From Escherichia phage vB_EcoS_HASG4, in the sequence record NC_100331.1: a stretch of DNA of 64,000 bases. One strand, written 5' to 3'. The translations under genes and the position numbers were made by a program. Numbering within the stretch: the stretch's first letter is position 1; each line of letters opens with the position of its first letter. A model generated the notes under the pieces. That model did not search any database and was not told where the DNA came from. It worked only from the letters and a program-made list of their open reading frames with translations. Below are positions 1-34,386 of the stretch, in pieces.

Positions 1-124
1 TGCTCACTGCCTCCGGCGGAAATACTTAGTCTGCTAACCGCCACCCTCCGTTACTATTACCATGCTAACTGTTTCACCCTGCAACCATTTTAATTGCAAG
101 GTGAAACAATTTCAACTTTAATTG

Positions 125-1686: not shown

Positions 1687-3351
1687 TTACGCGAAAAATT
1701 TACCATTCTTAAAGTCAATCAAGGTGCGCTGACCGTTTGCATAGGTAATAACATGCGTTTGTGTCCAGCTTGACGCGCCAACGTTATAACCCATGTCCAG
1801 ACTACCAGACACGCCAGCGGTGTATACGCCGCCGTAAATACTGGCGGTATGAGTGTGCCCCGTGTTTAATTTGCCCAATTTCTTAAACTGTTTCGGATTG
1901 CCACGGCTGCCGTTTATGCCGTTGTGACCGTGTACGCCGCATTCAATGCCTGCAATCTTGAAAGATTGATCAGTGGTCAGAAAAATAGCGTTAAACTCAC
2001 AACCTGCAACCTTACGCAGCGCATAATCTAGCACGTTGAAAGTATCGTCTTTTTCTGCAATAGCTCCATAAATCGCAGCATTAAGGCGGTGATATAGTTC
2101 CGCGTTTGCTGGGTCGTCTTTAATGTTAGCATTACGATCATCCAGCCAACGGGATAGCGCCAAATCGTGGTTTGATTCAACAATGATCGTTTGAGCAAAA
2201 TCGCGCTCCATCGATTCCAGCACGCGCCCGGTATCGATAAGATCATCCAGAACTTTATCACGTCCGGCGGCGTATTGTTTCGCTAGGAATACACCGGAGG
2301 CACGATTATGATGATTGCGTGATGTAAAATCATGCACGTCATGGACGAATTGATATTTTGGCTTGAGAATATCAAGCAAGCTATTTTCCCCAGCCCATGA
2401 TGCAACGGCGCAAGCGTCATCCAATTTTTCGGCGTGGACGTCGCCATATTGTAAACCTAAAACGTGCCCCGATGTTTCATAGCATCCGGCGGGAGTAGCG
2501 CAAACATTCAGATCATAAAATACGCCGCTTTCATCCATCGTTTCAAGCTGGCGAACAAAAAATTCTCCGTCTTCGTCGAACTCGACAATAAGCGCACCGA
2601 AGTTATGCAGCGCCTCGGCCTTTTGTCCTGCTTTCTGCTGGATGTAGTTTTTTAACGTTGCCGTTCCGGTTGAATACATACGGCGCACAATTTCACCTTT
2701 TAAAGCTGGCACGCTTTCAGCGGTAATTTTAGCCGCTCCGATTGCCAGACCTTCGAGATTAAGCGCGGTTGCAGTTTCAGCGAATCCAGAAAGCGGATAA
2801 TCTGCGGTGGGCAAAACATTAATTTCAGCCATGAAAGCAAAACGGCGATTGTTTAAAAATACGTTTTTGCTGCAAATATATTTATCAAACGCAGAATCAT
2901 ATTTGATTCCGTCTGCCCCTTCCCCATTTTGAAAACCGTTTTTATTATAAATATACTTAGAAACAAGCAAATCAGCGCCAATAAATTGGGCATATTGTTC
3001 AAGCGAGGCTAAAAAGTTTTTATGCGGGAAAGTATTATTCTGAATCGATGTAATAATAAAGCGTTTGCCTTGTTTTACTTCCCATTGCTCCACCGTGCTA
3101 GAAATAACTCCAGCGGCTTCAGGGCGGTCATCGTTTTTTATGGCTTTTGCTGTTTTTGCCGCTTTTGGTTTCGCTGGTTTATTTGCTTCCAACCAGTCGC
3201 AGATAGCGGTCGAGTGTTTTGTAGTATCGTATACCGCTTTTGATATATCGTCGCAGACTTCCAGTTTAGTAGCGCGCAGACGTTTACCATAGAAATTAAA
3301 GTCAGCGGCAAGGTTGAGAATCTGGGCTTGTTTTTCTGCGGAAATAATCAT
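1687..3351 (-). CDS. A1: A1-like metallophosphoesterase (pre-early host takeover protein candidate)
   Basis: 554 aa; calcineurin-like motifs GDVHAE, VHDVHD, ESNHD, GHNG, GHTH; size/position match T5 A1. Confidence 0.8.
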   Translation of the reverse strand: MIISAEKQAQILNLAADFNFYGKRLRATKLEVCDDISKAVYDTTKHSTAICDWLEANKPAKPKAAKTAKAIKNDDRPEAAGVISSTVEQWEVKQGKRFIITSIQNNTFPHKNFLASLEQYAQFIGADLLVSKYIYNKNGFQNGEGADGIKYDSAFDKYICSKNVFLNNRRFAFMAEINVLPTADYPLSGFAETATALNLEGLAIGAAKITAESVPALKGEIVRRMYSTGTATLKNYIQQKAGQKAEALHNFGALIVEFDEDGEFFVRQLETMDESGVFYDLNVCATPAGCYETSGHVLGLQYGDVHAEKLDDACAVASWAGENSLLDILKPKYQFVHDVHDFTSRNHHNRASGVFLAKQYAAGRDKVLDDLIDTGRVLESMERDFAQTIIVESNHDLALSRWLDDRNANIKDDPANAELYHRLNAAIYGAIAEKDDTFNVLDYALRKVAGCEFNAIFLTTDQSFKIAGIECGVHGHNGINGSRGNPKQFKKLGKLNTGHTHTASIYGGVYTAGVSGSLDMGYNVGASSWTQTHVITYANGQRTLIDFKNGKFFA

Positions 3352-3703: not shown

Positions 3704-4111
3704 TTATTCACCTGCGGCCTGTTTTACTTCATCGGCAACGCCCAATAGTTGCGCCACGGCGTCCAACGTTTCTAATTTTGCGCTTTCCAGTGATGCCAGA
3801 TCGTCAACGTCTTTGATAATACCGGAATCGATGGCATGTTTTGCAATAACGCGCACATAATGCGCTTTGCGGATAGAACTGCCGCCGCCAACCTTGCGAG
3901 GTTTATCGCTTTTCTGATACGCTTTCGCGCTGGTCAATTTTGAGCGAACGGACACGGGAGAAGCCGCACCTACTGCTTTCGCGATCTCTTTCAAGCCGTC
4001 GCTATTTGCGAAATCTAAACCGTTTTCATTGATTAGCTGCTGATACATGGTAACAGCCTGCTGGGTGTTTTCTTCATTCCAAGAAAATTTTACGGTTTTA
4101 ACGTTAGTCAT
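3704..4111 (-). CDS. hypothetical protein (A2-like by size and position)
   Basis: 135 aa ORF downstream of A1-like gene. Confidence 0.55.
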   Translation of the reverse strand: MTNVKTVKFSWNEENTQQAVTMYQQLINENGLDFANSDGLKEIAKAVGAASPVSVRSKLTSAKAYQKSDKPRKVGGGSSIRKAHYVRVIAKHAIDSGIIKDVDDLASLESAKLETLDAVAQLLGVADEVKQAAGE

Positions 4112-5080: not shown

Positions 5081-5685
5081 CGGACGGCGTGCGGTGACGG
5101 CCTAAAATTAAAAGAAACGGGCGCGCGAATACCACAAAACAAAGCAAATAGGCAAGTAATTTTTTCATTTATATTTGCTTTCCCCTACTTGACAAAATCT
5201 AAAAAGCTCGTGGTAGCGATAAACGGCTTATCCCCTTATGATGGGATGGCTAAAAACTTTATTGCGTTCTAGGGCGTTTTAGGCGGCTCATTTTCGATTT
5301 AACAAATATCTAACAAAAGCAAAATTGAAAAATAGTTGAAAAAGGTCTTGACTTTTAAAAATCAAGGGGCATTGCATTAATTTATAAAATAAATTAATTG
5401 ACTTTTATTTGTTGTTGTGTATTAGAAAGATAGCAAACTAATAATTACTAGAATGATAATCATGCTGGTGGATTGTAACGGCTTAAATTATTAGCAGACT
5501 ACTAATCCCGGAAAATCTCATTAGCCAACTAACTGTTTCATAAGTTATAATATACATATAAATTAATGAGAAATAATAATTATAAGAAAACGTAACCGAT
5601 AGGAATAATAACTATAAAAATAATCACTACTATAATAATAACTATAAGAAACTATCGGCCTAAGTGAGAACCACTATCATTTAAG

Positions 5686-5706
5686 TTATCCACAAAGTTA
5701 TCCACA
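5686..5706 (+). promoter_or_regulatory. two tandem DnaA-box consensus sites (TTATCCACA x2)
   Basis: gttatccacaaagttatccacagc read directly, in AT-rich 1 kb intergenic region. Confidence 0.6.
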
Positions 5707-6060
5707 GCACTTTTTGACTTGACACGATATGCGGCGATACAAGGACTTTTGCTCAGACTTACCCACAGGTTATCCTACTGTATAAATATACAAGGTAAAA
5801 AGATAGTGTTAACAACTGCAATCAATTTTAAGCGGCCTAAATCGCTTTCTAACGAGCAAAACGCTGTAGGGTAATATTAAAGTAAAGCCTCAACGTGTCG
5901 GCCTGGTGGCTTCGCCGTGTTTTGCTCTTTACTATACCGCTGCGCGGTTAGCATAAAAATAAGCGTTAGGCAAGGAAAATAAAAAGGTAAAATAATATTT
6001 GCCCCTAGAAAGAAAATACCTTTATCATTCACTCACCGATTAACGAGGGAGGCCGAACAA

Positions 6061-8713: not shown

Positions 8714-8868
8714 AAAAGTTTTTAATAGCTGGTATGTTTCCTTTGTTGCCTTATGTAATTTGCTGGGCTTTATATGCTCATGGTGCTAGTGTTCCCGGTG
8801 TGGCTTCATTTGGTGTATCGGCTGGTTTTCTAACCGGACTATTGGCAAGCGTATATTTACGCAAATAA
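8710..8868 (+). CDS. small membrane peptide
   Basis: 52 aa hydrophobic; start overlaps upstream stop. Confidence 0.4.
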   Translation: MKKFLIAGMFPLLPYVICWALYAHGASVPGVASFGVSAGFLTGLLASVYLRK

Positions 8869-8886
8869 TTAATAACGGGAGTTATT

Positions 8887-9090
8887 ATGAGCAATAAAAT
8901 TATTGTAACCAAAATCAGTACAATGGTTGATGTTTTTTACGTGCCCGATACGCCGGAGAATCGGCAAGCGGTTGAGCGTGGCGAGTATGATAAAGTGATT
9001 TATGATCACGATGGTTATTATCAGCATTTGGCGGATTCCTACGGGGAGGAGGAAAAAATCACGCATCGACTACCGGAGGAGGATTTATGA
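8887..9090 (+). CDS. hypothetical protein
   Basis: 67 aa; RBS GGGAG. Confidence 0.5.
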   Translation: MSNKIIVTKISTMVDVFYVPDTPENRQAVERGEYDKVIYDHDGYYQHLADSYGEEEKITHRLPEEDL

Positions 9091-9240
9091 AACGATGGTT
9101 TAATCACTGGTATAAACGGTTTTTAGTACGCCGTCGCAAGTCTAGGCATCAAGATGAGTGGAGGGAGTGGGCAAAGCGTAACGGTTGCCCACTACTATAA
9201 TAATCACGGGGCGCAACTAGTAAGAAGTGCCCCCAATTCT

Positions 9241-9770
9241 CAAATGAGAATCATTCTCATTTGACCGCGCCCGCGATGATTAGCCTGCTAATGGTTAGGG
9301 TGTTACGTGTCGCCTTGTGTGATCGTTAGCGTGCTAACTAATTTTCAAGCCTCCTCCAATTTTCCCCTTGTTTTAGTATCCCCGCCAAAATTAAACGCGT
9401 TAGAATGCGATTCAGGACGTTTTAAGCCTATATTAGAATTATTCACTGCATAGGAATACTGTATATTTATACAGTAGAATAACCTGGGGATAAGTCTGTG
9501 GATAACGCTTCAAAATGGCTAGGGTTCTGTCAAGTCAAATCGTGCTGTTGATAAGTCTGTGGATAACTTAAATAACAGTGTTTCTCACTTCCGTTTTTAA
9601 ATGCGAATCATTATCATTCGCATTTCACTAGCTAACCGATAATCACTCCACTTTTTAAATGAGAATCATTTCACTTCTTGAATAGTTCTCATTCCCTTTC
9701 TTAAATGCAAATCATTATCATTCGCATTTCACTTTTTAAATGAGATTGATTCTCATTATCATTCGCATTC
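9241..9770. repeat. family of palindromes (gagaatcattctc / gcgaatcattatcattcgc)
   Basis: inverted repeats at ~9241, 9596, 9655, 9697, 9735 read directly. Confidence 0.7.
9489..9567. promoter_or_regulatory. two copies of gataagtctgtggataac, each with a DnaA-box complement TGTGGATAA
   Basis: 18-bp direct repeat at 9489-9506 and 9550-9567. Confidence 0.6.
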
Positions 9771-9800
9771 AGGCGAGCAAGGCAATTGCCCTGCGCTTTT

Positions 9801-10400
9801 GTGCAAATCCGACATTTGCCCCCATGGATTACGCGTGGGCATGTATGTGCGAATCCGACAATTTTTGGTAGTGTGCAAATCCGACCCGAAAAATTTTTAT
9901 AGTGTGCGAATCCGACAATGAATTTTCCTAAAAACTCCAGCAATCACGAACTGCGTTCGAATCCTGTGGAATTAGCTAGAGTATGTGCAAATCCGACATG
10001 TGTTGAGCTGTGCGAATCCGACAAGATTTTTGTGACTTCGATTGGAGGGTGTGTGATTGTATAGGTTTGAGGAGAAGATGAGAGAGCGAGAGAAATTTTG
10101 GGACTAGAAGGATGTGGGCGCAAGATTGGTGCGGAGCACCTGATTTGCGGGGATTTTGGGGGAGAGTTGAGATAATTTGGGAAGATTTGAGATAGGTGCA
10201 GAAAAAGTAAAATTTTATTAGCTAAATGGAGCAAAATAGCTTGACAAGTGAAAATTCTTGTGGCTCTAAAAACTCAGGCAATCATGGGCCTTCGGCCCGA
10301 AATAATGCTGCTATTTTCAGGAGAGTAAGAGTTCCTAAAAACTTAGGCGTTTGTGCAAATCCGACCATAAATTTCTAGAAACACAGTGTGCAAATCCGAC
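9801..10400 (+). repeat. GTGCRAATCCGAC direct repeats (8 copies; ninth at 12153)
   Basis: copies at 9801, 9847, 9873, 9903, 9985, 10010, 10353, 10388, same orientation, irregular spacing. Confidence 0.8.
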
Positions 10401-10936
10401 AGTAATTTCTGGAAATGTGTTTTCAAAAAATGTCTCCTAGAAATAACCGCCCTCCCTATAACCGCCCTGTATAGGAAAACCGGCCTAGGATATGTAACGT
10501 TAGAGAGAAACTGCCCTAGAATGTGAGAGTTTTCCCAGAAACTTAGGAGTCTAGAAGAAAGTATTGTGCCATCCTAGCAGATGAGCGGCAACAGGTGTAT
10601 CATCTTGAATGTAAATTATGTGGTCAAAAGTTTTACTTTTATTTTAAATATAAGATCCCCCAGGGTTCTCATATAGAGCTTTGCCCCCGCCAGAAGGTCT
10701 CGTGGTGTTTCTAGCAATTTATATTAAATTACTTATTAACTTGTCCTGTCGCTCCGTATCCTCCGCTACAAGTTAGTAATTTTAAATTACTGAACCACCA
10801 CACCTTCTGTGTGGCAACTCTAAATGGTTAATTCTATTAACTCATAGAGTTATGATAACATACATTTAGCTATCTGTCAACGACAGTTTGTATTTGAGTC
10901 TCGGTACAGGTATTGTGCACCGAGACATGCAGAGTA

Positions 10937-11821
10937 CTATAATAATTCTTGGTATGCTTTTTGATATGCCTCAGTATCTGTAGGTGTATCTTTTGCTAAT
11001 GCAATTAGTTCATCCGTTATCTGAATATTCGTATTATAACGTTGGTGGAACTCGTCAGGAATTTCTAGATATCTATTTATGAACGCTGCAGCAAGCGGTG
11101 TAACTAACCCAATTTCTAGAGATAACTTAACTTGTTTCTCATAAATTAAATACTGAGAATCAGATGGGATTGGTGGGGTTACATCAATTTTTTCTGGTTC
11201 TTTTTCTGGAAGCAATGGATTGTTATACAATGCTTCATCTGGAAGTACAGATTTACGTTCCTTAAATATATAAGTTTCTAGATCAGATGCTTTAGATCCT
11301 GAGTAAACAGCGAAGATGCTAGCTTTACCTTGTGATGCCCTAACGGGCAAATAGTTAGTTGGGTAACTCTTTAATGCATCGTGAAATGGACTTCCTGAGT
11401 ATTTGTACGTATCCCCATAGAGATCATCAATATTCATTCTTTCATCTTCAAAGATATGGAAAGAGCTAAATGATGGAATGGTGAAGTATTCCATCTGTAA
11501 CCCATAAACTAAGAAACGATGTGCATATGCACTAATCTTTAAGACTGTAAATGCTTTCTCACCTTCTTTATAAGAATTGCCTTTAGAAGTAACTTGATAA
11601 CGCTTACAGAACATCTCTACTAAACGTTTCTCATTAATATTGAGTGAGGAATATAAACGTCCATTTAGCCCTAGAAGGGCATCAAACATAAATGCTAACT
11701 TATCTTTTTCTTCTTGAGACAGTTCTGGAAATGGTAATACTTTGGCATTAGGAACATTATTGTTCTCCTTAGGTTTTGTTTTACCCGCATTTTGTCTTAG
11801 TTTATCTTTAAAGTTATACAT
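10937..11821 (-). CDS. hypothetical protein
   Basis: 294 aa; RBS GGGAGATAATA. Confidence 0.6.
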   Translation of the reverse strand: MYNFKDKLRQNAGKTKPKENNNVPNAKVLPFPELSQEEKDKLAFMFDALLGLNGRLYSSLNINEKRLVEMFCKRYQVTSKGNSYKEGEKAFTVLKISAYAHRFLVYGLQMEYFTIPSFSSFHIFEDERMNIDDLYGDTYKYSGSPFHDALKSYPTNYLPVRASQGKASIFAVYSGSKASDLETYIFKERKSVLPDEALYNNPLLPEKEPEKIDVTPPIPSDSQYLIYEKQVKLSLEIGLVTPLAAAFINRYLEIPDEFHQRYNTNIQITDELIALAKDTPTDTEAYQKAYQELL

Positions 11822-11900
11822 TATTATCTCCCGTTTTTAAGGTCTGGATGACCTTCTTTTTATTTTAGAGCCTCCGTAGAGGCTCGTGTATTAGGAATTA

Positions 11901-12158
11901 TTAATCCTTTTTACTTTCGTTAATAACAGCCCCTAGTGCTTCAAGGATAGTATCATTTATACCCCCAGGCCTAAGATTATTAAAGTGAGTAACATAGATG
12001 GGGCTTCTAAAACCTTCAGTATCCACAGGTGCTACGCTTTTCATATCAGATTCAAAAGCTTCTTGGGTATGTTTCAACTGTACAGAAGGCCCATAATCTT
12101 CCCCAACTCGATAGGACTGATTAGACGACAGTGTACCACCACATGGAACATTGTGCAA
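11901..12158 (-). CDS. hypothetical protein
   Basis: 85 aa ORF. Confidence 0.4.
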   Translation of the reverse strand: MHNVPCGGTLSSNQSYRVGEDYGPSVQLKHTQEAFESDMKSVAPVDTEGFRSPIYVTHFNNLRPGGINDTILEALGAVINESKKD

Positions 12159-12209
12159 ATCCGACGTTATTTTAGGATTATTATTTAATAGTGCAATACC
12201 ACTTTTTGA

Positions 12210-12506
12210 CTATGGATCACTAACAGTGGTACTGGGGCGGTTCACTTCAGTCTTCATGAGTTTATAGCCAGCATCTATTAATGCGTTAATAAGGTTATCC
12301 GCTGGGATGCGAGCGTTGCCAAAAATCTTACGAGCGTTGTTGAGCCTACCTTCAAAATCTTTACATGCTTTAATATTAGTGTGTGCAAAGGTTAGCTTCA
12401 TAGATTTGAATTGTACAGTAGCAGTTAAATCTTTAAAGCTATAATCCCACGTATTCAGTTCATGATCTGGTACTACTTGAATAGACTGTTGTGCATATAA
12501 AGTCAT
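12210..12506 (-). CDS. hypothetical protein
   Basis: 98 aa. Confidence 0.5.
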   Translation of the reverse strand: MTLYAQQSIQVVPDHELNTWDYSFKDLTATVQFKSMKLTFAHTNIKACKDFEGRLNNARKIFGNARIPADNLINALIDAGYKLMKTEVNRPSTTVSDP

Positions 12507-21964: not shown

Positions 21965-22717
21965 TTATCCAACTAGTGGTTCTAGCTCTAAGTCACAGAA
22001 GTTATACACTTCTAGTTTAAGGTTATTGATACCATCGAATTTATTAACTAATTCGTGAGTAATATATTTTGCAGGAATACCACTTTCAGATGGATGATCT
22101 GATTTAATAGTGAACTTCTGCTCAGCGGGCACTACATTTATTAGTAAAGAATCCATATCTAAATGGTTTGTTTCTCTGAGTAACTCTCCTTCATTGGGGA
22201 ATCTCACATCTGTTATTACGGCGACATCTGGGTCGTCTTTAGCGATGGATTGCTCCAGAATTATGAGCCAAATGCGTTCATGTACCAGCTGCCTTCCTAG
22301 CTCTGTTCCTACGAGCTGTAACATTTTTCTCGGAGAAATAAATAAACTATAAAGTCCGTCTTCTTTATTCTCTGAGATAAGTTGTTGAGGATTAAGATAT
22401 TTTCCCTCAAAAATCGGCCAAACGTACGAGAAGTCTTCAAACTTATCGATACCGTATTTAAACCATACGTCTCTAGCTCGCTCCAATTGAGATTGTGTGA
22501 CCGTAAACCATTGGTCAATCTCTTTCCCCCTGCGCTCTCCTAGAAACTCTGGAGTTACACCGAGGATTACAGATGCAAGTTCATAAACGGGCTTGGCAAA
22601 ACTGTAACGACGTGGTAAACACGTTGGATACGTGTCGTTACACCAATCGATAATTAATTTTGCAACGGTATCTTTTCCCGAACCAGCTTCACCATGCAGA
22701 CCTACTAATACTGACAT
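21965..22717 (-). CDS. deoxynucleoside monophosphate kinase
   Basis: 250 aa; P-loop GEAGSGKDT at N-terminus. Confidence 0.7.
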   Translation of the reverse strand: MSVLVGLHGEAGSGKDTVAKLIIDWCNDTYPTCLPRRYSFAKPVYELASVILGVTPEFLGERRGKEIDQWFTVTQSQLERARDVWFKYGIDKFEDFSYVWPIFEGKYLNPQQLISENKEDGLYSLFISPRKMLQLVGTELGRQLVHERIWLIILEQSIAKDDPDVAVITDVRFPNEGELLRETNHLDMDSLLINVVPAEQKFTIKSDHPSESGIPAKYITHELVNKFDGINNLKLEVYNFCDLELEPLVG

Positions 22718-34303: not shown

Positions 34304-34386
34304 TGGCGGGCCGTGTAGGATTCGAACCTACGTTGTCTTTCGACATGGATTAACAGTCCACCGCCAAACCGCTTGGCTAACGACCC
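34304..34386 (-). tRNA. tRNA-Asn (GTT) candidate with extended variable arm
   Basis: 83 nt; anticodon arm GTGGA-CTGTTAA-TCCAT; ~13-nt variable hairpin GTC-GAAA-GAC. Confidence 0.65.

What the first reader, a model, noticed from the sequence alone, without database searches (positions are those of the whole stretch)
9100..10930. 1.8-kb non-coding region with palindromes, nine GTGCRAATCCGAC repeats and DnaA boxes
Contains large palindromes, an 18-bp direct repeat carrying TGTGGATAA, and eight same-orientation GTGCRAATCCGAC copies with irregular spacing, plus a ninth at 12153. In T5 the first-step-transfer DNA ends at an injection-stop locus described as rich in repeats, palindromes and DnaA boxes, close to the inner end of the ~10 kb terminal repeat; position here (~9-10.5 kb from the window start) fits. 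What binds the 13-mer is unknown.
Basis: partly seen in the sequence, partly recalled or inferred. Interest (0 to 1): 0.6.

Follow-up and report, generated by a model that had tools for sequence, protein, structure and literature searches.

The report
T5 injection-stop region and its 13-mers
This is the already described repeat-rich "injection stop" region at the inner end of the left terminal repeat of a T5-like phage; the protein that reads its conserved 13-base repeat is still unknown, and comparison across the phage family points to the phage's own A2 protein as the most likely reader.

Summary
The window starts at the left end of a T5-like coliphage, close to vB_EcoS_EASG3 and 95% identical to T5 in this region. 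Window 9201-10936 is non-coding and aligns to T5's annotated injection stop signal ("Repeat Region 3"). The 13-mer is T5's annotated "direct repeat D" (DRD), so the element itself is already known. No function or binding protein has been assigned to DRD in the papers I could read.

Comparison adds several points:
- The terminal repeat ends at window 10266, between DRD cluster 1 (six copies) and cluster 2 (two copies).
- The same order of modules recurs in Pectobacterium, Klebsiella, Vibrio and Proteus phages.
- In 30 distinct loci every copy is on one strand and to the right of the major nick site. The first copy starts 9-11 nt after the start of the nick consensus.
- True DnaA boxes stay invariant across lineages while the 13-mer drifts. 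This argues for a phage-encoded reader rather than a host factor.
- A2 has an invariant predicted recognition helix on a GcrA/Myb-like fold. The small terminase's helix varies among phages with identical 13-mers.

Best guess, at about 0.4 confidence: DRDs are A2 binding sites that act when DNA transfer restarts.

The parts
9240..9264 (.). 25-bp perfect palindrome TCAAATGAGAATCATTCTCATTTGA, an AAATGAGAATCATT-type unit, just after the last pre-early ORF (9087-9200)
9457..9476 (.). Palindrome D of T5 (TACTGTATATTTATACAGTA)
   Evidence: retained in My1, Klebsiella, Vibrio and Proteus phages
9460..9590 (+). IRD'-spacer-IRC' module. It carries direct repeat B (9484-9506 and 9545-9567), with consensus DnaA boxes TGTGGATAA at 9497-9505 and 9558-9566 plus variant boxes. 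Its inverted partner lies at 5662-5792.
   Evidence: Davison 2020
9595..9764 (+). Direct repeat C, palindromes E-I: four to five AAATG(A/C)GAATCATT units forming hairpin-type palindromes
9777..9797 (-). Palindrome J and the major nick site. The + strand CCCTGCGC|T is the complement of the T5 nick consensus R/GCGCRGG, so the nick is in the minus strand between 9796 and 9797 (T5 'nick 1, 7.9%').
9800..10023 (+). DRD cluster 1: six copies of TGTGCRAATCCGAC(A), starting at 9801, 9847, 9873, 9904, 9985 and 10010. All lie inside the terminal repeat.
10153..10191 (+). Direct repeat A, copies 2 and 3 (G-rich, ATTTGGGAAGATTTGAG)
10241..10266 (+). TTGACAAGTGAAAA block followed by the inner (right) end of the terminal repeat at 10266|10267
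10286..10298 (.). GC hairpin GGGCCTTCGGCCC, 20 nt beyond the terminal-repeat end
   Evidence: read directly; conserved in T5 and Stitch
10352..10401 (+). DRD cluster 2: copies at 10353 and 10388, outside the terminal repeat. T5 has a third copy that is lost here.
10444..10469 (+). Two ATAACCGCCCT units. They are related to TAACCGCC at window 35, which lies 34 nt inside the left genome end.
12152..12165 (+). Isolated DRD copy (T5 'direct repeat D copy 10'), at the boundary of two minus-strand ORFs that match a single T5 ORF019. It is present about 2.4-2.9 kb right of the nick in most close relatives.
3704..4111 (-). Gene A2 (135 aa), a pre-early DNA-binding protein and the proposed reader of the 13-mer

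Best explanation
Identity (shown). Window 9201-10936 is the T5-family 'Repeat Region 3', also called the injection-stop locus. It lies between the convergent pre-early and early gene blocks and spans the inner end of the left terminal repeat at 10266. It is a composite of separate cis elements, in this order:
1. a DnaA-box module;
2. AAATGAGAATCATT palindromes;
3. a major nick site;
4. the 13-mer array (T5 'direct repeat D', DRD) in two clusters that bracket the repeat end;
5. G-rich repeats;
6. the repeat terminus itself.

Mechanism (inferred). The 13-mers are recognition sites for a phage-encoded, sequence-specific DNA-binding protein, most probably the essential pre-early protein A2. The array starts 4 nt after the nick consensus, at about the point where first-step transfer halts, and extends only in the direction of the DNA that has not yet entered. 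I propose that newly made A2, together with its membrane-associated partner A1, loads on these sites as they become accessible. It would then hold or ratchet the DNA inward to restart second-step transfer. The stop itself is more likely set by the upstream modules (DnaA boxes and palindromes) or by something not encoded in DNA.
For: Identity: 95% identity to T5's annotated iss and repeats. The terminal-repeat end is mapped at 10266.

A phage-encoded reader rather than a host factor:
- The array is found only on T5-like contigs of about 95-123 kb, plus one 11.8-kb fragment.
- The consensus DnaA box TGTGGATAA is present unchanged in every lineage examined (E. coli, Pectobacterium, Vibrio, Proteus and Aeromonas phages) apart from the Klebsiella locus, where the scan found none, although BLAST retains the module there.
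- The 13-mer drifts by lineage over the same set. It is GTGCRAATCCGAC in T5, My1 and Klebsiella phages, GTGCAAAACCGAY or GTGCTAATTCGAT in JSF12, GTGCGAAACCTAT in D332, GTGCGGATTCTAT in X1 and GTGCGTAATCGAC in Proteus phages. It is absent in an Aeromonas phage.

Polarity and position: in 30 distinct loci every copy is on one strand and to the right of the nick site. None lies in up to 9 kb to the left. The first copy starts 9-11 nt after the start of CCYGCGC.

- A2 is restricted to Demerecviridae. An A1-only outgroup phage has no array.
- The AlphaFold model (pLDDT 84.5) shows an N-terminal three-helix HTH. The invariant V55-R56-x-K58-L59 lies on its third helix.
- The small terminase's HTH helix varies among T5, My1 and Klebsiella phages, which share the identical 13-mer.
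- Lineages with A2 R81 keep G at motif position 11. The two lineages with P or Q at that position have T or A there.

From the literature: A2 is a DNA-binding dimer required for second-step transfer, and its target is unknown.
Against: - There is no direct binding evidence of any kind. All support is correlative.
- The R81/G11 covariation probably reflects a single evolutionary event.
- A2 is reported to be a dimer, whereas the site is asymmetric and irregularly spaced.
- The Aeromonas phage keeps an A2 homolog but has no recognisable 13-mer, and the Proteus phages keep A2 with only one to three diverged copies.
- The two clusters bracket the terminal-repeat end in T5, EASG3, Stitch, My1 and (approximately) Cody. 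The restart model does not require that arrangement.
- The fixed distance between DRD1 and the nick site is also not explained by the restart model.
- I could not read the 1981 A2 biochemistry paper or the 1987 and 2015 iss papers. I therefore do not know whether A2 specificity was tested, or whether this idea has already been proposed or excluded.
Confidence: 0.4

Rival explanations
1. The 13-mers are small-terminase (TerS) binding sites. They would form a pac/cos-like recognition region on both sides of the cut that creates the right end of the terminal repeat, in the way SPP1 pacL/pacR or lambda cosB R sites flank their cleavage sites.
For: The repeat end lies in the gap between cluster 1 and cluster 2 in T5, EASG3 and the window, Stitch, My1 and approximately in Cody, even though repeat lengths range from 7.8 to 12.9 kb. 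The nick-to-end distance is 470-510 bp in the enterobacterial phages. A T5-type TerS (phrog_3802) is conserved across the family.
Against: - There are no 13-mers at the other cut site, the left repeat junction, in EASG3, T5 or My1.
- The predicted TerS HTH recognition helix is not conserved among phages that share the identical 13-mer.
- A different motif, TWACCGCC, marks both termini: 34 nt inside the left end and 160-193 nt beyond the right end. The ends also carry their own conserved blocks.
- Copies about 2.4 kb further right, inside early genes, are conserved.
- Sharing one intergenic region with the repeat end is expected in any case, because this is the only long non-coding stretch between pre-early and early genes.
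Confidence: 0.15
2. The 13-mers are sites for a pre-existing host protein and are part of the stop signal itself. For example, they could be low-affinity DnaA sites that extend Davison's DnaA-box model: TGTGCAAAT matches TGTGNAWAA at 8 of 9 positions, in the same orientation as the true boxes.
For: - The halt occurs without phage protein synthesis, so the stop factor must pre-exist.
- The left half of the 13-mer resembles a DnaA box. The JSF12 variant TGTGCAAAA is a full match to the relaxed consensus.
- The orientation is the same as that of the consensus boxes at 9497 and 9558.
- The array begins at the mapped end of first-step DNA.
Against: - Conservation extends over 13-14 bp. The information content of positions 8-12 (ATCCGA) is as high as that of the DnaA-like half, which DnaA does not explain.
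- The G variant (TGTGCGAAT) has two mismatches to the DnaA consensus.
- The motif drifts between lineages, and even between clusters in one phage, while genuine DnaA boxes stay unchanged.
- Spacing is irregular and not helically phased.
Confidence: 0.12
3. The 13-mers work with the adjacent nick or with a virion or late protein. They could help position or protect the terminal-repeat nick, or form a polar barrier, comparable to Myb-type Reb1 or Sap1 terminators, against nucleases, replication or leftward early transcription entering the repeat.
For: - The first copy lies at a fixed distance of 9-11 nt from the start of the nick consensus in all lineages, including Proteus phages that keep only that copy.
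- The single orientation is strict.
- The array lies between convergent transcription units.
- Structural neighbours of A2 include the polar-barrier proteins Reb1 and Sap1.
Against: - The other two major nick sites in the window (22529 and 39589) have the same CCCTGCGCT core but no 13-mer.
- Nick-deficient T5 mutants are viable, and nicks are not thought to be needed for two-step transfer (my own recollection, not checked here).
- A barrier role does not explain why A2 is essential specifically for second-step transfer.
Confidence: 0.12
4. The repeats have no function of their own and are products of local duplication in a tolerant intergenic region.
For: Some copies sit in longer duplicated units: 31-nt units at 9855-9916 and 46-bp units in Proteus phage 1.
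Against: The core is kept from E. coli phages to Vibrio phages whose A1 and A2 proteins are only 32-42% identical. Orientation is strictly uniform and positioning relative to the nick is fixed. Information content falls sharply outside the 13-14 bp core.
Confidence: 0.03

Closest known systems
Bacteriophage T5 injection stop signal / 'Repeat Region 3' with direct repeat D (Heusterspreute et al. 1987; Wang et al. 2005, GenBank AY587007; Ksenzenko, AY543070; Davison 2015 and 2020)
   Same: It is a homologous sequence (95% identity) in the same position, with the same order of palindromes, DnaA-box repeats, nick site, 13-mer copies and terminal-repeat end.
   Different: There are only minor differences. 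A/G is swapped in individual copies. T5's ninth copy is lost here (window about 10493). The terminator/palindrome C segment at 9201-9340 is diverged.
Terminase recognition regions made of repeated TerS sites around the cut (lambda cosB R sites, SPP1 pacL/pacR)
   Same: Short same-sequence repeats lie in two groups on either side of a terminase cut site.
   Different: The repeats are absent from the second cut site. The TerS reading helix is not conserved where the repeat is. Another motif marks both ends. Binding was not tested.
oriC-type DnaA box clusters and plasmid or phage iterons
   Same: There are consensus DnaA boxes plus an array of same-orientation short repeats whose left half resembles a DnaA box.
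   Different: Spacing is irregular and unphased. No adjacent initiator gene was found. T5 origins are reported near mid-genome. The repeat core is longer than a DnaA box.
GcrA / Myb-type single-domain HTH proteins that read asymmetric sites (for the proposed reader A2)

Membership tests
T5 injection-stop locus (iss / Repeat Region 3) | Sequence homology to the T5 iss region | tested here: met
   95% identity over 89% of the query; the match overlaps the features annotated 'injection stop signal'
T5 injection-stop locus (iss / Repeat Region 3) | Location in the long non-coding stretch at the inner end of the left terminal repeat, about 8% from the left genome end | tested here: met
   The window starts at the genome's left end. 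The repeat end is at 10266. The nick site at 9790 is about 8.1% of a ~121-kb genome.
T5 injection-stop locus (iss / Repeat Region 3) | IRD'-spacer-IRC' module with paired DnaA boxes and an inverted partner upstream | tested here: met
   9460-9590 pairs with 5662-5792 at 87% complementarity; TGTGGATAA at 9497 and 9558
T5 injection-stop locus (iss / Repeat Region 3) | Series of direct repeat D copies after the nick site | tested here: met
   Eight clustered copies plus one distal copy, one-to-one with T5 copies 1-8 and 10
T5 injection-stop locus (iss / Repeat Region 3) | Acts in cis to halt DNA transfer at about 8% | not testable with these tools
   Requires infection followed by a shearing experiment
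Terminase pac/cos recognition site | Repeats adjacent to the terminase cut site | tested here: met
   The repeat end lies between cluster 1 and cluster 2 in five phages
Terminase pac/cos recognition site | The same recognition element at every cut the terminase makes (both repeat boundaries) | tested here: not met
   No 13-mer within several kb of the left repeat junction in EASG3, T5 or My1
Terminase pac/cos recognition site | Bound by the small terminase subunit | not testable with these tools
   Indirect evidence only: the TerS HTH helix varies where the motif is identical
Replication origin (DnaA-box cluster or iterons) | Regularly spaced or helically phased repeats next to an AT-rich unwinding element and an initiator gene | tested here: not met
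   Spacings of 46, 26, 31, 81, 25, 343 and 35 nt equal 4.4, 2.5, 3.0, 7.7, 2.4, 32.7 and 3.3 helical turns. Flanking genes have no initiator domains.
T5 nick-site recognition sequence | Present at all major nick sites | tested here: not met
   The CCCTGCGCT sites at 22529 and 39589 lack any 13-mer

The most novel reading that the evidence does not exclude
The 13-mer array is a dedicated cis-acting 'restart' signal. [quoted passage not shown] That would be a sequence-specific, protein-ratchet mode of phage genome import, distinct from pressure-driven ejection or the transcription-driven entry of T7. It would also separate the T5 'stop' elements (DnaA boxes, palindromes) from the 'go' element.
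Probability: 0.3. Interest if true: 0.75.

Novelty: already known. Interest (0 to 1): 0.38.

Why it matters
How T5 halts DNA delivery at 8% and restarts it has been an open question since the 1960s. The cis signal and the DNA target of the essential protein A2 are both undefined. The element flagged here is the known locus, so finding it is not new. The family-wide comparison does narrow the problem in three ways. It separates host-type elements (invariant DnaA boxes) from a phage-specific element (the drifting 13-mer). It shows that the 13-mer track is strictly polar and begins at the halt point. It names A2 as a concrete reader, with specific residues (R56, K58, R81) and specific bases (position 11) to mutate. 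This turns an old descriptive puzzle into a few simple binding and mutant experiments.

Tried and rejected
- Rfam search of 8800-12400 at E<=1 found nothing. There are no tRNAs in the region.
- Promoter- and terminator-like sites are not enriched over shuffles. One strong promoter-like site on the minus strand (10880->10852) was left unexplained.
- I tested whether the 13-mer belongs to nick-site recognition and rejected it: the two other major nick sites lack it.
- Searching for the array outside T5-like phages found only T5-like contigs. An outgroup phage with an A1-like gene but no A2 has no array.
- Sequence-level similarity of A2 to GcrA or any PDB entry was not detected. The local Pfam and NCBIfam libraries gave no A2 hit, although the protein database lists PF26822 for the family.
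- PhageTerm-type repeat ends were not taken at face value. In Proteus phage Stubb the annotated end coincides with the nick position. In Kenya-K20 it falls between copies 1 and 2. In Cody the boundaries look shifted by tens of bp.
- Papers I could not obtain: Davison 2015, Snyder and Benzinger 1981, and Heusterspreute 1987. The afdb50 fold library was unavailable.
- I initially assumed that packaging runs from right to left. One paper states that the left end is packed first, so the argument does not rely on packaging direction.
Full report
**1. What the window is**

The first 60 bases of the window equal the first 60 bases of Escherichia phage vB_EcoS_EASG3 (MK373799), a Tequintavirus. The flagged stretch is 100% identical to that record and 95% identical to T5. 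Elsewhere the window differs slightly from EASG3: it is 97% identical in the first 3 kb. It is therefore a very close relative rather than the same isolate. Gene order is that of T5: dmp, A1 (1687-3351) and A2 (3704-4111) on the minus strand, then rightward pre-early genes ending at 9200, and then leftward early genes starting at 10937.

**2. The observation**

- GTGCRAATCCGAC occurs exactly at 9801, 9847, 9873, 9904, 9985, 10010, 10353, 10388 and 12153, always on the + strand, and nowhere else in the 64 kb. With up to 2 mismatches, 13 sites are found against 1.4 expected, and no shuffle reached 13.
- The 18-mer GATAAGTCTGTGGATAAC is duplicated at 9489 and 9550. It contains TGTGGATAA, the complement of the DnaA box TTATCCACA.
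- Palindromes lie at 9240-9264, 9457-9476, 9599-9625, 9703-9729 and 9777-9794.
- No CDS is annotated between 9200 and 10937 in EASG3 or T5, and there is no Rfam or tRNA hit.

**3. It is a known element**

T5 record AY543070 annotates the homologous stretch as 'injection stop signal (iss)' inside the left terminal repeat, with a 'major DNA single-chain interruption'. Record AY587007 annotates palindromes C-J, direct repeats A-D and 'major single-stranded nick 1, 7.9%'. Transferring those features through a pairwise alignment gives a one-to-one match.

- The 13-mer is 'direct repeat D' (DRD). Window copies 1-8 correspond to T5 copies 1-8, and 12153 corresponds to T5 copy 10. T5 copy 9 has been lost here.
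- The 18-mer belongs to 'direct repeat B'.
- The T5 repeat end (10139 in AY587007) maps to window 10266. The EASG3 record's right end also maps there.

So 9100-10266 is inside the terminal repeat and 10267-10930 is just outside it.

Davison's 2020 preprint describes the same 'Repeat Region 3', lists nine DRD copies, proposes that the DnaA boxes are the stop signal, and says explicitly that his model gives no role to the other repeats.

**4. Anatomy across the family**

I used A1 as a marker to fetch the corresponding regions from Pectobacterium phage My1, Klebsiella phage RCIP0070, Vibrio phages Cody, JSF12, D332 and X1, Proteus phages 1 and Stubb, and Aeromonas phage AhSzw-1. The order of modules is conserved:

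1. DnaA-box module;
2. AAATGAGAATCATT palindromes;
3. CCYGCGC nick consensus;
4. DRD cluster 1 (5-7 copies);
5. a gap of 250-600 bp;
6. DRD cluster 2 (about 3 copies).

Thirty distinct loci could be anchored on the nick consensus. In these, every DRD-like copy within -9 kb to +6 kb is on the same strand and to the right of the nick site. The first copy starts 9-11 nt after the start of CCYGCGC, even in Proteus phages, which keep only that single diverged copy next to the nick. Most close relatives also keep the isolated copy about 2.4-2.9 kb further right.

Information content is high across the 13 core positions, with a weaker T at -1 and A at +13, and it drops outside. Among close relatives the whole non-coding region (identity 0.8-1.0) is better conserved than the adjacent pre-early ORFs (0.3-0.7).

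**5. Host factor or phage factor**

The consensus DnaA box TGTGGATAA is present unchanged in every lineage examined, including the Proteus and Aeromonas phages. The exception is the Klebsiella locus, where the scan found none, although BLAST retains the module there. The 13-mer drifts by lineage:

| Lineage | 13-mer |
|---|---|
| T5, My1, Klebsiella phages | GTGCRAATCCGAC |
| Vibrio phage JSF12, cluster 1 | GTGCAAAACCGAY |
| Vibrio phage JSF12, cluster 2 | GTGCTAATTCGAT |
| Vibrio phage D332 | GTGCGAAACCTAT and GTGCGAATTCAAY |
| Vibrio phage X1 | GTGCGGATTCTAT |
| Proteus phages | GTGCGTAATCGAC and GCGCGAATTAGAC |
| Aeromonas phage AhSzw-1 | none recognisable |

The left half of the motif does resemble a DnaA box: TGTGCAAAT matches TGTGNAWAA at 8 of 9 positions. 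However, the right half is equally conserved, and the spacing is irregular and unphased. An exact two-copy pattern occurs in the viral contig collection only on T5-like contigs. This pattern fits a phage-encoded reader that co-evolves with its sites.

**6. Which phage protein**

I compared two candidates.

*Small terminase.* TerS (phrog_3802; the gene next to TerL) is conserved across the family. The segment that should form its HTH recognition helix, roughly residues 44-56, differs even among T5-type, My1 and Klebsiella phages, whose 13-mers are identical. Its invariant residues lie in the core and the C-terminal part. There are also no 13-mers at the other terminase cut, the left repeat junction. 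A different motif marks both termini. AGTCTCNTWACCGCC lies 34 nt inside the left end in the window, My1 and Stubb. TAACCGCCCT lies 160-193 nt beyond the right end in the window and My1, and the same element sits at the corresponding place in Klebsiella and Stubb. The ends have their own conserved blocks as well: TTACACATGGA before the left end, and TTGACAARTGAAAA before the right end.

One covariation was seen. All lineages with arginine at A2 position 81 keep G at motif position 11. D332 (proline) and X1 (glutamine) have T or A there. These two phages may be sister lineages, so this probably counts as a single event.

**7. Relation to the nick and to the repeat end**

The + strand CCCTGCGC|T at 9789-9797 is the complement of the published T5 nick consensus R/GCGCRGG. 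The same core occurs at 22529 and 39589. The three sites lie at 8.1, 18.6 and 32.7% of a ~121-kb genome, matching T5's nicks at 7.9, 18.5 and 32.6%. Neither of the other two is followed by a 13-mer. The 13-mer is therefore not part of general nick recognition, and the fixed nick-DRD1 distance at this one site remains unexplained.

The repeat end falls between the two clusters in T5, EASG3, Stitch and My1, and approximately in Cody. Some annotated ends are doubtful. Stubb's PhageTerm end coincides exactly with the nick position. Kenya-K20's end falls between copies 1 and 2.

**8. Most likely mechanism**

Shown: the identity of the locus, its anatomy, the position of the repeat end, and the conservation, polarity and drift of the 13-mer.

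Inferred: The reasoning runs as follows. The array begins at the mapped end of first-step DNA and runs only into DNA that has not yet entered. A2 is made from first-step DNA. It is essential only for second-step transfer. It binds DNA and associates with A1 at the membrane. I put this at about 0.4.

The rivals are terminase recognition (0.15), a host factor or the stop itself (0.12), nick-coupled or polar-barrier roles (0.12), and no function (0.03).

**9. Verdict**

The finding is a correct rediscovery of a known, annotated locus of a classical model phage, so its novelty is nil. It keeps some interest only because the function of the 13-mer and the target of A2 are still open. The comparative results here make that question directly testable.

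Noticed in passing
window 35-42 and 10444-10469; L018 34 and 13014; L075 34 and 12097; L019 4233 (minus): The motif TWACCGCC (AGTCTCNTWACCGCC) lies 34 nt inside the left genome end in three genera. A related TAACCGCCCT lies 160-193 nt beyond the right end of the terminal repeat. It is a candidate packaging-recognition element common to both terminase cut sites.
   Followed up: partly
window 10241-10266; L004 3470-3489; L018 12820-12854; L076 3650-3671: Both repeat boundaries carry conserved blocks: TTGACAARTGAAAA 12-14 nt before the right end, and TTACACATGGA 8-10 nt before the left end, in T5-type phages and My1.
   Followed up: partly
L075 11408-11416 (Proteus phage Stubb): The PhageTerm-predicted terminal-repeat end (11415) coincides exactly with the nick consensus CCCTGCGC|C. 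The annotated repeat boundary in this record is probably a nick artefact. The TAACCGCCCT element at 12097 suggests a true end near 11.9 kb.
   Followed up: partly
window 10540-10936: This is the best conserved part of the whole non-coding region among close relatives (identity 0.95-1.0), and it lies outside the terminal repeat. It contains a near-consensus sigma-70 promoter-like site on the minus strand (TTGACA-17-TATCAT with TG, 10880->10852) pointing into the repeat region. No ORF or known RNA family is present.
   Followed up: no
window 9790, 22529, 39589: Three CCCTGCGCT sites on the + strand lie at 8.1, 18.6 and 32.7% of a ~121-kb genome. They match T5's major nicks at 7.9, 18.5 and 32.6%, so this phage very probably carries the same nicks.
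   Followed up: yes
L004 2-484 (minus), EASG3 record 107001-107483; L074 2209-2272: The 160-aa small terminase homolog (phrog_3802) next to TerL is the ORF whose 5' end the old T5 record M62847 labels 'putative sciB', a gene mapped for altered nick frequency. One modern record calls it 'SciB protein'. This hints at a possible link between terminase and nicking.
   Followed up: partly
window 9801-9813 compared with 34315-34327 and 41207-41219: The 13-mer differs by one base over its first 10 bases from the tRNA T-arm sequence GTTCRAATCC, including the R position. The only near-matches elsewhere in the window are T-arms of phage tRNA genes. This is probably coincidence.
   Followed up: no
window 11901-12158 and 12210-12506 (minus strand): The homolog of T5 ORF019 (a single 202-aa ORF in T5) is split into two ORFs here and in EASG3. 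The distal 13-mer copy sits at the break.
   Followed up: no
window 5662-5792 and 9460-9590: The DnaA-box module has an inverted partner 3.7 kb to the left (87% complementary) with two consensus TTATCCACA boxes, as Davison described for T5 (IRC-spacer-IRD).
   Followed up: yes
L023 3104-3271; L021 6951-7138 and 8117-8270: Aeromonas phage AhSzw-1 and Proteus phage 1 carry different tandem arrays (8/16-bp TCTAGCCGTCTAAACA; 15/18-bp CCCACCATTCTATTATTC; 46-bp units) in the equivalent non-coding region, while keeping the DnaA boxes.
   Followed up: partly
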